This document shows, one piece after another, positions 7,025 to 10,306 of a stretch of DNA of 16,031 nt; positions within the stretch are counted from its first letter, which is position 1, and the number at the start of each line of letters is the position of its first letter. Below the pieces are notes generated by a model. It ran no database searches and was not told the DNA's origin. It saw only the letters and a list, made by a program, of their open reading frames with translations. The stretch lies in UHGV virus genome UHGV-0259371. One strand, 5' to 3'. The DNA is from a virus. The translations under genes were made by a program, and so were the position numbers.

Positions 7025-7450
7025 TTATTCCTTAAAATGTGCTTTCAACATCTGATACAAGGACCATGCCTGTTCATTATTTTCAATAGTAACTTTCATG
7101 ACTGGGAATTCTGTGAAATCTTCTATTTGTTCTTGCTCTTGCTCTTCCTGCTCTTGCTCTTCAGCTGCCTGATATGGATTTTCCACTTCATCAAAGAACT
7201 CGGCTTCGTTAGTAGAGAGCCAGATAAAGTTTTCGTCAAGGATATCACCATGTGTTGCATATCCAATTGTGCCAGTAAATGACATAATTTTAGTAGGACG
7301 ACCAAGATGGTCAACATCTAAAATTTTAAAAGGATGCATACCTAAACGTCGTGCATAAATTCCGTTATCAGTATGGTCTTTAATAAAAGCTTCTTGAGCT
7401 TGTTTATTTTTAAATTGATACCATTTATTAACTTCAAATTTAATAGCCAT
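7025..7450 (-). CDS. Acidic early protein, 141 aa, with an [12 protein letters not shown] tract (possibly the goF equivalent by position)
   Basis: ORF between the zinc-ribbon ORF and a 71-aa ORF. Length and position fit T4 goF as I recall it, but this is not verified. Confidence 0.5.
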
Positions 7451-7665
7451 TAATAAATTTCCTTCCAGTAAGTTGTACCGTCTTCAGTGATTTCACGGAA
7501 TACACCATAAATCGGTTGTTTATCACCAACCTTTTCATACACATAAACCGAAGTCAAGTGAGTAAACTTGATGGTGTGTTCCTTTTGAACTACTACCAAA
7601 TCTGGATCGAATAATACATCTTCAAATTCGTCATTAGTGCAATTCTGAACAATTTTACGTTTCAT
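7450..7665 (-). CDS. Small early protein, 71 aa (possibly the cef equivalent by position)
   Basis: ORF with 1-nt start/stop overlap with the 141-aa ORF. Assignment is positional only. Confidence 0.45.
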
Positions 7666-7678
7666 TACAATTTCCTCA

Positions 7679-7960
7679 TTAATTGAACAGTGGAGCGATG
7701 CGTTTCAGAAGAGTAGCAGCACCTTTGGCAAATTTTACATCATGAAAAACAGTTTCTTCTTCCGTTACAACACGAGCTTTAATGTTTTCACAATCCCAAT
7801 TTTTGCGAACAATCTTCAAAAGCTGCAGTAAATCTTTACATTCAGCAATATCGATAACACATCCACGAGAATCTTCCATTATCGCACGATAACCATAAGC
7901 CATACCATAATCATTGAAAGATTGCTCGATGATAATTAAGTTTTCCATTTTATTCTCCAA
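7679..7960 (-). CDS. Hypothetical early protein, 93 aa
   Basis: ORF immediately downstream of the promoter-like repeat region at 7961-8045. Confidence 0.5.
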   Translation of the reverse strand: MENKMENLIIIEQSFNDYGMAYGYRAIMEDSRGCVIDIAECKDLLQLLKIVRKNWDCENIKARVVTEEETVFHDVKFAKGAATLLKRIAPLFN

Positions 7961-7970
7961 GTTGTTTTCT

Positions 7971-8044
7971 ATATCAGTAGTTGATATTGATATAGTACCA
8001 TAATCAACTACTGATGTATATAGTTTTATGAAAAAATTTTAAAC
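7971..8044 (-). promoter_or_regulatory. Promoter-like intergenic module containing a 13-bp inverted repeat; homologous to the promoter region at 1-90
   Basis: Shares ATCAGTAGTTGAT, TATAGTACCA and TTTTATGAAAAAATTTT with positions 6-85. Minus strand has -10 TACTAT with weak -35 ATATAC, or GTTTAA/TATACA. Inverted repeat arms ATCAGTAGTTGAT at ~7973-7985 and ~8003-8015. Confidence 0.45.
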
Positions 8045-8045
8045 T

Positions 8046-8534
8046 TTATGCATAGAGAGCATTGCTATAGTGTTTAATCCAACTTTCAGGAATGACTTTG
8101 TATGTTCCTAAAAATACCACGTTGTACAACTTAACGCCATCTTCTACCCATTGATCGGTAATGTATCCACACATAGCGCGAGTATAAGCAGCCTTTCCAT
8201 CATCTTTGATAAATTTAAATTCGCAAGGAGCAATGAACTTAATAGCCTGACCGAGTTTCCACTTAAAGTCTACACCTACATGCGAAGTATCAATCGTTTC
8301 AATTCCTTTAGCAGGAACAGCTTTCAAAAACGCAGATTCAAGAAATTTCGCGCGAACATAACCAAACTGAGGTTTAGACTTTCCATCTTTAGGAATGATA
8401 CGAACTTTTACTTCAGAATCTTCATCTTTAACGCCATGTTTAAGCTGAATGCTTACAATTTCGACCAATTTTCCTGCTGCTTTAGAACGGGATTTATCAG
8501 ACACACGAGCAATTTCACCAATATTAATAATCAT
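8046..8534 (-). CDS. motB: MotB-like basic early protein, 162 aa
   Basis: 162 aa, lysine-rich, own early promoter, located between the cef-like ORF and dexA as on the T4 map. Identification is by length and position only. Confidence 0.5.
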   Translation of the reverse strand: MIINIGEIARVSDKSRSKAAGKLVEIVSIQLKHGVKDEDSEVKVRIIPKDGKSKPQFGYVRAKFLESAFLKAVPAKGIETIDTSHVGVDFKWKLGQAIKFIAPCEFKFIKDDGKAAYTRAMCGYITDQWVEDGVKLYNVVFLGTYKVIPESWIKHYSNALYA

Positions 8535-8578
8535 AGTTATCTCTCACTTGTTAAAAAGATTTTATACTCCACGGGACC

Positions 8579-8608
8579 ATTATACTCTGGTCCCAAGAGT
8601 TTGTAAAC
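8579..8608 (-). promoter_or_regulatory. T4-type early promoter upstream of the motB-like gene
   Basis: Minus strand: GTTTAC-AAACTCTTGGGACCAGAG-TATAAT-GGTCCC; -10 lies in the loop of a 7-bp inverted repeat GGGACCA/TGGTCCC; -35 shares its G with the upstream gene's TAG stop. Confidence 0.7.
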
Positions 8609-9045
8609 TAGCTTACACGAACATTAATCACTGCGCTACGAGGAACTACAGAGTATTCTCCAGCATGAACTACGTTCAGAAGTTCAACGCCATCTTCAAT
8701 CCACTGATCAGTCACCCATCCACCCACAGGATTCGCGAATGGACGACGAATATAAACTGCCTTACACAGCAGATCAGTTGGATCTTCAGGTTTTTCAATT
8801 TCTGTCAATAGACTAAAATCTTTTTCATAAATAATAAGCGGTGATACCATTCCATAATAGTTTCTAATTTCAATATACATCATACCGATAAGAATTCCGC
8901 TATTAACGCTAATAACAGTAAAAGGATATCCGCCAGTTAAACCAAGAAGTTCACAAAACTTATTATGAGCTGTATTAGACAGTACCGAAAAATTCTTAAT
9001 TTCATCAAATTTTTTCAATTGATAAACAGCATTATTTTTAATCAT
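8608..9045 (-). CDS. Hypothetical protein, 145 aa, sharing a C-terminal module with the motB-like protein
   Basis: C-terminus GGWVTDQWIEDGVELLNVVHAGEYSVVPRS aligns with the 162-aa protein's GYITDQWVEDGVKLYNVVFLGTYKVIPES. Confidence 0.55.
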   Translation of the reverse strand: MIKNNAVYQLKKFDEIKNFSVLSNTAHNKFCELLGLTGGYPFTVISVNSGILIGMMYIEIRNYYGMVSPLIIYEKDFSLLTEIEKPEDPTDLLCKAVYIRRPFANPVGGWVTDQWIEDGVELLNVVHAGEYSVVPRSAVINVRVS

Positions 9046-9055
9046 GATTTTCTCT

Positions 9056-9559
9056 TTAATTTAAAGTAATAAAGCCTTTTAATTCGGCATGTGATTTGCG
9101 GAACATTACTTGGTGCCCGCCAATGATAACTTGATCATCTGGAACTTCGTATACAGCGAGATAAAATCCTTTAGAAGATAATTCTTCACGCTCTTCTCGT
9201 GTGAACCATCTCATCATATCATATTCACTAGCGAAAGCAAAATGATAAAGAGCTATAAACCATCCAGGAATATAATGATCTACGCCTACATATTCTTCTT
9301 TCTCAAAGTTAGTATTAATTGCTATATTAGCATTTTTAACTAATAATTTGTCTTCGCGCGGAAGAGGAATTCTTTTGTTATCATTACTATGATGCATAAA
9401 ATTAGGTCTATCATAACCTACGTGTAATAACCACTCTTCGCTCCATGAATCTATTATACTCCTGTATGGCGTTATTTGAACACAAAGATCTCGACGTATT
9501 GTTATAGCATCTTCATAATTAAGAATACTAAACGATGATTCAACACGATAAATTTTCAT
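9056..9559 (-). CDS. Hypothetical protein, about 167 aa (track ORF 9056-9598 shortened to the ATG at 9559)
   Basis: The track start lies upstream of the early promoter -10; internal ATG (MKIYRVESS...) is preceded by RBS GAGGAUAAUAAA and lies downstream of the promoter. Confidence 0.5.
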   Translation of the reverse strand: MKIYRVESSFSILNYEDAITIRRDLCVQITPYRSIIDSWSEEWLLHVGYDRPNFMHHSNDNKRIPLPREDKLLVKNANIAINTNFEKEEYVGVDHYIPGWFIALYHFAFASEYDMMRWFTREEREELSSKGFYLAVYEVPDDQVIIGGHQVMFRKSHAELKGFITLN

Positions 9560-9586
9560 TTTATTATCCTCAGTAGCTATGGTGTT

Positions 9587-9616
9587 ATAGTACCACAACT
9601 AACCGAGGAAGTAAAC
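9587..9616 (-). promoter_or_regulatory. T4-type early promoter downstream of dexA
   Basis: Minus strand: GTTTAC-TTCCTCGGTTAGTTGTGG-TACTAT, 18-bp spacer. Confidence 0.6.
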
Positions 9617-9622
9617 AACTTT

Positions 9623-10306
9623 TTATCGTTTTATTGGAAGAGATAGAGGATCGCAATCTTCCTCTGACGGAGCATCTTCAAGACCCATAGCATATCGCAA
9701 AGCATACTTCATCATCAGGATGTCTTTCGCACAATCATGAATAGAATCATGTGCAACGAATCCATCTAAAGTTCCCTTTGGAAGAGGACATGTAGTCATA
9801 TCACGAACAAGCAGAAGTGCTTCAATTCTGGTACGAATATCACGTTGATTCCAGAATTTACATGGTTCTAACTTAAATGTGTCAAGTTCATTCTCAGAAA
9901 CGCCATTAAGACGTTGAATATCGCGAATGAGATCGACTAAAATTGGAAAATCAAACGACATTCCACGGCACCAGCCTTGAGATTTCCAAGGATCGATATT
10001 ATGTGCATTGATGTAATCATTAAATTTTACAATACCATCGATAGTGCTTACATCTTCATCTGACGGTGCAATATTTTTTCGAGCTTCAGGAGACTGATTT
10101 TTCCACCATTCGATAGTGCTTTTAGTAAAAAGACGATGTCCTTTTTGGCTTTTTAAATCAAACTTGATTTTAATGCCGCGTGAAACTAATTCATCAAATG
10201 TTTCAACAACTTCTGGGTTAGGGTCAAAAGCAATAACAGCCAAATCAATAACAGCTGCCTTTTCACCGCTTCCCATTGTTTCAAAATCTATAATAAAATC
10301 AAACAT
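9623..10306 (-). CDS. dexA: Exonuclease A (DnaQ-like 3'-5' exonuclease), 227 aa
   Basis: 227 aa (the T4 DexA length); N-terminal DFET (Exo I acidic motif) and C-terminal HDSIHD (Exo III-like); located just downstream of dda as in T4. Confidence 0.75.
   Translation of the reverse strand: MFDFIIDFETMGSGEKAAVIDLAVIAFDPNPEVVETFDELVSRGIKIKFDLKSQKGHRLFTKSTIEWWKNQSPEARKNIAPSDEDVSTIDGIVKFNDYINAHNIDPWKSQGWCRGMSFDFPILVDLIRDIQRLNGVSENELDTFKLEPCKFWNQRDIRTRIEALLLVRDMTTCPLPKGTLDGFVAHDSIHDCAKDILMMKYALRYAMGLEDAPSEEDCDPLSLPIKR

What the first reader, a model, noticed from the sequence alone, without database searches (positions are those of the whole stretch)
8046..9045. Adjacent proteins share a C-terminal module (Y/W-x-TDQW-x-EDGV-x-L-x-NVV ... 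Y-x-V-x-P)
The motB-like 162-aa protein and the neighbouring 145-aa protein have unrelated N-termini but a clearly homologous C-terminal stretch of about 35-45 residues. The similarity is also visible in the DNA (aacgccatcttc...cca.tgatc) at ~8110-8160 and ~8670-8720. This suggests domain shuffling or a tandem duplication with N-terminal replacement, and the module may be a shared binding domain.
Basis: seen in the sequence. Interest (0 to 1): 0.5.

Follow-up and report, generated by a model that had tools for sequence, protein, structure and literature searches.

The report
Shared C-terminal barrel of MotB and MotB.1
Two neighbouring early genes of a T4-like phage, motB and motB.1, do share a homologous C-terminal mini-domain behind different N-terminal domains, but this was published in 2021, so the finding is correct and ordinary.

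Summary
The window is a Tequatrovirus (T4-like phage) early region. The 162-aa protein is MotB and the 145-aa protein is MotB.1. Their C-termini align at 51% identity (BLASTP E 8e-12). That score was reached by 0 of 2000 shuffles (z about 19), and profile-profile comparison gives E 1.7e-14. The N-termini show no sequence or profile similarity.

It is a whole small domain of about 52-64 residues, with an 11-13-residue hairpin insertion in MotB.

Relatives show the module always at the C-terminus, behind KOW-like or one to three LSm-like barrels. This fits duplication followed by N-terminal replacement.

All of this was essentially published (Patterson-West et al. 2021, PMC7827196; Kim et al. 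2025, PMC12152347), and Pfam PF17613 already covers it.

The module's function is unknown. It is acidic in most members, so I favour a partner-binding or targeting role over direct DNA binding.

Side note: the T4 reference motB.1 carries a 1-nt frameshift inside the module.

The parts
8046..8534 (-). motB gene (162 aa plus stop); the product is basic, with net charge +7 and pI 9.3
   Evidence: ORF. Pfam PF17613 scores 365.8 bits over positions 1-162. PHROG 1671 'MotB-like transcriptional regulator'. 97% identical DNA in Tequatrovirus genomes annotated as motB. Charge.
8608..9045 (-). motB.1 gene (145 aa plus stop); the product is acidic, with net charge -3 and pI 5.35
   Evidence: ORF. PHROG 2333 at 229 bits. 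Pfam PF17613 scores 32.7 bits (cut-off 25), matching model positions 118-153 only. Same position as T4 motB.1, between motB.2 and motB. Charge.
8049..8267 (-). Shared C-terminal module in MotB (residues 90-162). The core homologous to MotB.1 is residues 93-156. It contains a longer beta1-beta2 hairpin of 11-13 extra residues.
   Evidence: hhalign, alignment A3, hmmsearch of the window's six frames at 119.5 bits. AF2 strands 97-109, 115-131, 134-141, 144-149, a 3-10 turn at 150-152, then strand 153-156; block-mean pLDDT (10-residue blocks) 87-94 for residues 91-160.
8611..8784 (-). Shared C-terminal module in MotB.1 (residues 88-145). The core homologous to MotB is residues 92-143.
   Evidence: hhalign, alignment A3, hmmsearch of the six frames at 83.6 bits. 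AF2 strands 96-99, 107-117, 120-127, 130-135, a 3-10 turn at 136-138, then strand 139-141; block-mean pLDDT (10-residue blocks) 87-91 for residues 91-140.
8331..8534 (-). MotB N-terminal KOW-like barrel (residues 1-68), net charge +5. It carries the family-invariant motif V-S-x-x-S-x-S-K-x-x-G.
   Evidence: AF2 gives five strands at 8-11, 23-30, 41-46, 56-61 and 65-67. Invariant columns. Charge. The KOW assignment was published from HHpred (PMC7827196).
8268..8330 (-). MotB inter-domain linker (residues 69-89), predicted disordered and variable in length among homologues
   Evidence: pLDDT below 50 for residues 70-83. Insertions of up to about 40 residues occur here in relatives.
8794..9045 (-). 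MotB.1 N-terminal barrel with helical insertions (residues 1-84). It has no detectable sequence relationship to the MotB N-terminus.
   Evidence: AF2 strands 7-10, 42-49, 55-61, 67-73, 80-83 and helices 19-22, 26-37, 74-79. No similarity to the MotB N-terminus. Published as an LSm-like/SH3-like fold shared with GoF and Frd.2 (PMC12152347).
8116..8176 (-). DNA core of the module in motB that resembles the motB.1 core (about 74% identity)
   Evidence: Local DNA alignment.
8669..8729 (-). DNA core of the module in motB.1 that resembles the motB core
   Evidence: Local DNA alignment.
8579..8607 (-). Sigma-70-type promoter-like site (TTTACA-17-TATAAT) in the motB.1-motB spacer, which would give motB its own early promoter
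   Evidence: Consensus scan, 11 of 12 matches, the best in the region. The spacer is 100% identical to T4. A consensus match only; function not tested.

Best explanation
The two ORFs are motB and motB.1 of a T4-like (Tequatrovirus) phage. They are early genes in the dispensable dexA-goF region.

Structure. Both products are predicted to be two small beta-barrels joined by a linker. The C-terminal barrel is homologous between them: about 52 residues in MotB.1 and about 64 in MotB. Its signature is [ILV]-[TS]-D-x-W-x-E-[DE]-G-x-x-L-x-N-V-V...G-x-[YF]-x-V-x-P. It is predicted to be an SH3-like barrel of the Tudor/KOW/chromo type, with four strands, a 3-10 turn and a fifth strand. The N-terminal barrels differ: KOW-like and basic in MotB, LSm-like with helical inserts in MotB.1.

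Origin. The most economical history is an ancestral gene with a KOW domain plus the module, still present as a single copy in Klebsiella T4-like phages. That gene was duplicated in tandem. One copy (MotB) kept the KOW domain, lengthened the beta1-beta2 hairpin and became basic. The other copy kept the ancestral-looking module and had its N-terminus replaced by one or more LSm-like barrels.

Function (inferred, not shown; my confidence in this step alone is about 0.35-0.4). The N-terminal barrel supplies nucleic-acid binding: DNA for MotB, which is experimentally a tight, non-specific DNA binder that alters H-NS binding. The shared C-terminal barrel supplies a common partner-binding, self-association or targeting surface. 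That surface would be built around the invariant exposed D-x-W-x-E stripe and would not be the main DNA-binding surface.
For: - Identity of the genes.
- Homology of the module.
- Same predicted element order in both copies, at high confidence.
- Foldseek against viral models links the MotB model to MotB.1-type proteins, for example Sf25 A0A2K9VM13 at E 6e-6.
- Architecture. The module is always C-terminal. The MotB-type core is found only with a KOW N-terminus. The MotB.1-type core is found with KOW, with the MotB.1 N-terminus, or with one to two LSm-like barrels by a crude pattern count (three in some ~250-aa proteins by inspection). The most divergent members are all KOW plus module.
- Copy number: usually 2 places per phage genome, 1 in Klebsiella phages, and T2 has motB only.
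- Charge. MotB.1-type modules are all acidic (net -2 to -5, pI 4.4-5.4), MotB-type modules range from -4 to +3, and the MotB N-terminus is +5.
- Invariant residues of the module are D, W, E, G, L, N and V, with no basic residue.
- Published support for the shared C-terminus, for duplication, and for MotB binding DNA and affecting H-NS: PMC7827196 and PMC6070864.
Against: - The functional split between the domains is inference only. No domain of MotB has been mapped experimentally.
- I could not superpose the two models directly.
- The direction of evolution (KOW plus module as the ancestor) rests on distribution and identity levels, not on a rooted tree. The module is too short for a robust tree.
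Confidence: 0.8

Rival explanations
1. The shared module is itself the nucleic-acid-binding domain. In the published proposal it is an OB-fold or cold-shock-like DNA-binding domain. On this view both MotB and MotB.1 bind DNA through it, and the N-termini only modulate.
Confidence: 0.25
2. The similarity is recent: gene conversion or recombination between neighbouring genes copied a short patch, rather than an old duplication of a whole domain.
For: The genes are adjacent, and the best-conserved stretch is also visible at the DNA level.
Against: DNA identity is only about 74% over 61 nt and vanishes outside the core. The two subtypes of the module (core x-K-L-Y against x-E-L-L) are each conserved across hundreds of phage genomes and stay distinct. 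The profile-level homology covers the whole barrel.
Confidence: 0.03
3. The similarity is a chance or compositional match between two unrelated small beta-rich proteins.
For: None beyond the short length of the first alignment.
Against: 0 of 2000 shuffles reach the observed score, z about 19-20. BLASTP E 8e-12. hhalign E 1.7e-14. Pfam and PHROG profiles of each family hit the other.
Confidence: 0.01

Closest known systems
Bacteriophage T4 MotB (Pfam PF17613 'motB, modifier of transcription'; Patterson-West et al. 2018 PMC6070864 and 2021 PMC7827196)
   Same: The 162-aa protein is an orthologue. It matches the Pfam model over its full length at 365.8 bits and sits at the same locus between motB.1 and cef. 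The 2021 paper already states that MotB and MotB.1 share a conserved C-terminal domain, have different N-terminal domains and probably arose by duplication.
T4 MotB.1 and the GoF/MotB.1/Frd.2 'LSm-like fold' family (Kim et al. 2025, PMC12152347)
   Same: The 145-aa protein is the MotB.1 orthologue, 78-80% identical to T4 and T4T MotB.1. Its N-terminal barrel with helical inserts matches the published description.
   Different: This window encodes an intact module. The T4 reference protein used in that study (119 aa, 13.8 kDa) is cut inside the module by a 1-nt insertion. I could not reproduce the GoF link at significance with the window's single GoF sequence (hhalign E 0.067).
SH3-like small beta-barrels: KOW domains of NusG/Spt5 and 'Royal family' Tudor, PWWP and chromo domains
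eIF5A/EF-P-like layout of a KOW domain followed by an OB-fold (the closest HHpred hits reported for the MotB C-terminus)
   Same: A small N-terminal KOW-like barrel followed by a second small barrel.

Membership tests
Pfam PF17613 (motB) | Whole-protein HMM score at or above the curated gathering cut-off of 25 bits | tested here: met
   MotB scores 365.8 bits over model positions 1-162. MotB.1 scores 32.7 bits, but only over model positions 118-153, which is the core of the module. All 23 isolated modules in A3 match this family and no other.
MotB proper (DNA-binding, nucleoid-associated-protein-like) | KOW-like N-terminal domain with the invariant V-S-x-x-S-x-S-K-x-x-G motif, and an overall basic protein | tested here: met
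   Met for the 162-aa protein: the motif is present, pI is 9.3 and net charge +7. Not met for the 145-aa protein: the N-terminus is different and pI is 5.35. MotB.1 therefore shares a domain with MotB but is not a MotB.
MotB proper (DNA-binding, nucleoid-associated-protein-like) | Tight non-specific DNA binding and an effect on H-NS binding or silencing | not testable with these tools
   Known for T4 MotB from experiments (PMC6070864, PMC7827196). It is inferred for this orthologue from the full-length Pfam match and about 97% DNA identity of the region to annotated Tequatrovirus genomes. Nothing is known for MotB.1.
OB-fold / cold-shock DNA-binding domain (published assignment for the C-terminal domain) | Five-stranded barrel with the order beta1-beta2-beta3, helix, beta4-beta5, and structural neighbours that are OB-fold proteins | tested here: not met
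SH3-like small beta-barrel (KOW/Tudor/chromo/PWWP class) | About 50-60 residues in the order beta1, loop, beta2-beta3-beta4 meander, 3-10 turn, beta5, with structural neighbours of that class | tested here: met
Tudor / 'Royal family' readers | Aromatic cage that binds methylated lysine or arginine | not tested
   Conserved aromatic positions exist (an invariant W in the D-x-W-x-E stripe, [WYF] before it, and [YF] in beta4).
GoF/MotB.1/Frd.2 LSm-like N-terminal domain family | Detectable homology or structural match of the N-terminal barrel to GoF and Frd.2 | tested here: inconclusive

The most novel reading that the evidence does not exclude
The shared C-terminal barrel could be a Tudor/chromo-like 'reader' module. 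Its invariant Asp-x-Trp-x-Glu stripe, together with conserved Asn and aromatic residues, would form a ligand pocket for one common target. Candidates are a host nucleoid protein such as H-NS or StpA, or the glucosyl-hydroxymethylcytosine of T-even DNA, since Trp flanked by acidic residues is typical of sugar-binding sites. The module would then deliver different N-terminal nucleic-acid-binding barrels (KOW for DNA, LSm-like for RNA) to the same place in the infected cell. Nothing here excludes this, and nothing here supports it beyond the fold class, the conservation pattern and the module's restriction to T4-like phages.
Probability: 0.1. Interest if true: 0.55.

Novelty: already known. Interest (0 to 1): 0.2.

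Why it matters
As stated, the finding adds nothing new. The shared MotB/MotB.1 C-terminal domain, the different N-termini and the duplication hypothesis are in the literature, and Pfam PF17613 already covers the module.

Three refinements here are useful to people working on T4 early proteins:
- The module is better described as an SH3-like barrel (Tudor/KOW-like) than as an OB-fold. It is acidic in most family members, which argues against it being the DNA-binding surface of MotB.
- KOW plus module appears to be the ancestral layout. MotB.1 and the 180-250-aa relatives then look like products of N-terminal domain replacement.
- The T4 reference MotB.1 (119 aa) is truncated inside the module by a single extra G. 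Resequenced T4 strains and this window encode the intact protein of 143-145 aa. The only functional tests of MotB.1 so far probably used a protein with a broken C-terminal barrel.

Tried and rejected
- Third copy of the module in the window: none. hmmsearch of all six frames with the module profile found only motB and motB.1.
- Hidden homology between the two N-termini, or between either N-terminus and the module (an internal duplication): none. hhalign gave E 0.037-0.48 and probabilities of 1.4% or less. The weak second BLASTP segment (E 0.25) is noise.
- Sequence links of the module to solved structures or other Pfam families: none at E up to 10.
- Link of the MotB.1 N-terminus to the window's GoF: not significant.
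- Exhaustive profile search of 1.84 billion representatives: 36 hits. The 9 long ones (361-1544 aa, several short stretches each) are spurious matches; the one I read, P0245, matches through a repeated motif of the type 'SGYATEQWVLDKNYITGVDLS'. I discarded these.
- Gene conversion as the source of the DNA similarity: rejected.
- My regular-expression classification of N-terminal types is crude. It misses the MotB.1-proper N-terminus, so I use it only for the qualitative pattern.

Full report
**What the region is.** The window carries a run of minus-strand ORFs. The stretch 7600-9700 is 97% identical to many Tequatrovirus (T4-like) genomes. Against an annotated relative and against T4 itself, the transcription order is dexA (9623-10306), motB.2 (9056-9598, 180 aa), motB.1 (8608-9045, 145 aa), motB (8046-8534, 162 aa), an 89/93-aa ORF (7679-7960), cef (7450-7665) and goF (7025-7450). 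The "neighbouring 145-aa protein" is MotB.1 (PHROG 2333).

**Checking the observation.** The motif is present exactly as described.
- BLASTP aligns MotB 114-151 with MotB.1 95-137 at 51% identity, E 8e-12.
- The Smith-Waterman score is 110. For 2000 shuffles of MotB.1 the mean is 27.8, the sd 4.3 and the maximum 53, so no shuffle reaches it and z is 18.9. For the C-terminal halves alone z is 20.1.
- The N-terminal halves score below the shuffle mean (z -0.6).
- The Pfam motB model hits MotB.1 above its curated cut-off (32.7 against 25 bits), but only over model positions 118-153. Each family's PHROG profile hits the other protein over 63-74 residues.
- I collected homologues, built family alignments (A1, A2) and compared them profile to profile. 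The result is probability 98.3% and E 1.7e-14, with MotB 93-156 aligned to MotB.1 92-143. MotB has an 11-13-residue insertion between the first two strands.

The homologous unit is therefore a whole domain of about 52-64 residues, not 35-45. It is the footprint of the conserved peptide core and not a separate DNA element. A profile search of all six frames finds only these two copies in the window.

**Structure.** AlphaFold2 with the family alignments gave usable models. MotB has mean pLDDT 80.4, with 10-residue block means of 87-94 over residues 91-160. MotB.1 has mean pLDDT 84.3, with block means of 87-91 over residues 91-140.

Both proteins are predicted as two small beta-barrels. In MotB the linker (residues 70-83) is disordered. 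The two C-terminal modules have the same order of elements:
- MotB: strands 97-109, 115-131, 134-141, 144-149, a three-residue helical turn at 150-152, then strand 153-156.
- MotB.1: strands 96-99, 107-117, 120-127, 130-135, a turn at 136-138, then strand 139-141.

**Distribution and architectures.** A profile of the isolated module (A3) was searched against 1.84 billion representative proteins. It found 36 hits. About 26 are genuine, all 100-250 aa with the module at the extreme C-terminus. The 9 long ones (361-1544 aa) match only through several short stretches; the one I read, P0245, is a repetitive protein, and I treat all of them as spurious. In the phage collection 782 of 50,697 records carry the module. 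There are usually two places per genome, one in Klebsiella T4-like phages, and T2 has motB only.

The architectures fall into these groups:
- A KOW-like N-terminus with a "K-L-Y" core. This is MotB.
- A KOW-like N-terminus with the "E-L-L" core typical of MotB.1. Examples are P0119 from a Klebsiella phage, and P0230-P0241 among the hits of the exhaustive search, whose source organisms are not recorded. P0119 aligns with MotB over its full length (E 3e-15), while its module is 75% identical to that of MotB.1 and much less similar to MotB-type modules (which are about 32-42% identical to the MotB.1 module).
- The MotB.1 N-terminus with the E-L-L core.
- One, two or three LSm-like barrels with the E-L-L core (proteins of about 180 and about 250 aa).

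The most divergent members all have a canonical KOW N-terminus. Some KOW/E-L-L proteins carry the long beta1-beta2 hairpin seen in MotB. I read this as an ancestral KOW-plus-module gene, duplicated in tandem, with the N-terminus replaced in the E-L-L lineage. This scenario is inferred from distribution and identity levels, not from a rooted tree.

**What is already known.** Patterson-West et al. [quoted passage not shown] They say one gene may have arisen by duplication of the other, and that further categories of proteins have the same C-terminal domain with other N-terminal motifs. From HHpred they predicted a KOW N-terminal domain and an OB-fold C-terminal domain. Kim et al. 2025 (PMC12152347) describe the MotB.1 N-terminus as an LSm-like/SH3-like barrel shared with GoF and Frd.2, and report no phenotype for a motB.1 deletion. 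MotB itself binds modified and unmodified DNA tightly and without specificity, copurifies with H-NS and StpA, is toxic to E. coli and doubles burst size (PMC6070864). From my own knowledge, Son et al. (Nucleic Acids Res. 2021) further describe MotB as a nucleoid-associated protein that compacts DNA. I did not read that paper here.

**How it probably works.** No experiment has assigned DNA binding to either MotB domain. My calculations bear on this:
- MotB has net charge +7 and pI 9.3, with +5 of that in the KOW-like N-terminal domain.
- The module is +3 in this MotB but ranges from -4 to +3 among MotB homologues.
- The module is acidic in every MotB.1-type protein (net -2 to -5, pI 4.4-5.4).
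- Whole MotB.1 has pI 5.35.

The invariant module residues are D, W, E, G, L, N and V. None is basic. I therefore favour a division of labour. The N-terminal barrel binds nucleic acid, and the shared C-terminal barrel provides a common protein-binding, self-association or targeting surface around the D-x-W-x-E stripe. This step is inference, with confidence about 0.35-0.4. The rival view, that the module is the nucleic-acid-binding domain, remains possible at about 0.25, because several SH3-like barrels bind DNA or RNA.

**Side observations.**
- The T4 reference genome (NC_000866.4) has one extra G in motB.1 (GGATTGGAAGATGG against GGATTGAAGATGG here, at window ~8697/8698). This shifts the frame inside T-D-Q-W-I-E-D-G and yields the annotated 119-aa "13.8 kDa" protein. 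The rest of the module is intact in the next frame. The intact 143-aa form (UniProt D9IE42_BPT4; accessions from resequenced T4 strains, by my reading) occurs on 256 contigs, the truncated form on 2. Kim et al. had their expression plasmids made by gene synthesis, cite NC_000866.4 coordinates for their T4 sequences, and report a 13.8-kDa MotB.1 that was mostly insoluble. That would fit a half-barrel.
- T4 also carries a 208-nt internal deletion in the ORF between motB and cef, which is intact here.

**Verdict.** The interest lies only in the refinements: the fold class, the charge argument, the direction of domain replacement and the T4 reference frameshift.

Noticed in passing
window ~8697/8698 (motB.1); L002 (T4 NC_000866.4) 1492-1851: The T4 reference motB.1 (NP_049627, 119 aa) has one extra G inside the module core (TDQWI|EDG), which truncates the C-terminal barrel. 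The window, and the T4-identical 143-aa form (P0017 = D9IE42_BPT4, on 256 contigs against 2 for the truncated form), are intact. The only published functional tests of MotB.1 (PMC12152347) report a 13.8-kDa protein, which was mostly insoluble.
   Followed up: yes
window 7679-7960 (-); L002 684-853: The 89/93-aa ORF between motB and cef (PHROG 3720, function unknown) is intact here. In the T4 reference it is reduced to a remnant by a 208-nt internal deletion; only its first bases and its last ~60 nt remain.
   Followed up: partly
window 7970-8018: An inverted repeat with 23-nt arms (83% complementary, 3 nt between the arms) lies between the motB stop codon and the next ORF. It is conserved almost base for base in T4. 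Its function was not examined; it could be a transcript-end or processing hairpin.
   Followed up: no
window 8535-8607: The motB.1-motB spacer is 100% identical to T4, although the flanking coding DNA is not. It holds the best sigma-70-like site of the region (TTTACA-17-TATAAT, 11 of 12 matches). A GGGACC...GGTCCC hairpin overlaps the -10 hexamer.
   Followed up: partly
relatives P0004, P0025, P0027, P0028, P0030, P0031, P0119; window MotB residues ~79-89 (8268-8300): A short motif, h-D-[FMT]-D-[VIL]-x-S-[MT]-Y-x-x-P..., recurs just upstream of barrel units in many relatives. The window's MotB.1 lacks the 22-aa segment carrying it that is present in the 167-aa variant P0004. MotB has a possibly equivalent 'IETIDTSHVGVD'. 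It may be a docking strand or a short linear motif.
   Followed up: no
P0243 (43 aa), compared with window motB.2 start (~9560-9598) and motB.1 module (8611-8700): A 43-aa predicted protein fuses the N-terminus of MotB.2 (MKIYRVESSFSIL.YED) directly to the second half of the module (GVELLNVVHAGDFSVVPRS...). It looks like a deletion remnant spanning motB.2 and motB.1 in some phage, similar to the 29-aa RB69 peptide mentioned in PMC7827196.
   Followed up: no
window 7025-7450 (goF) and 8794-9045 (MotB.1 N-terminus): goF, whose N-terminal barrel is published as a structural relative of the MotB.1 N-terminus, lies about 1.2 kb downstream in the same transcription direction. With the single window GoF sequence the profile comparison is not significant (E 0.067), although the aligned blocks look plausible.
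   Followed up: partly
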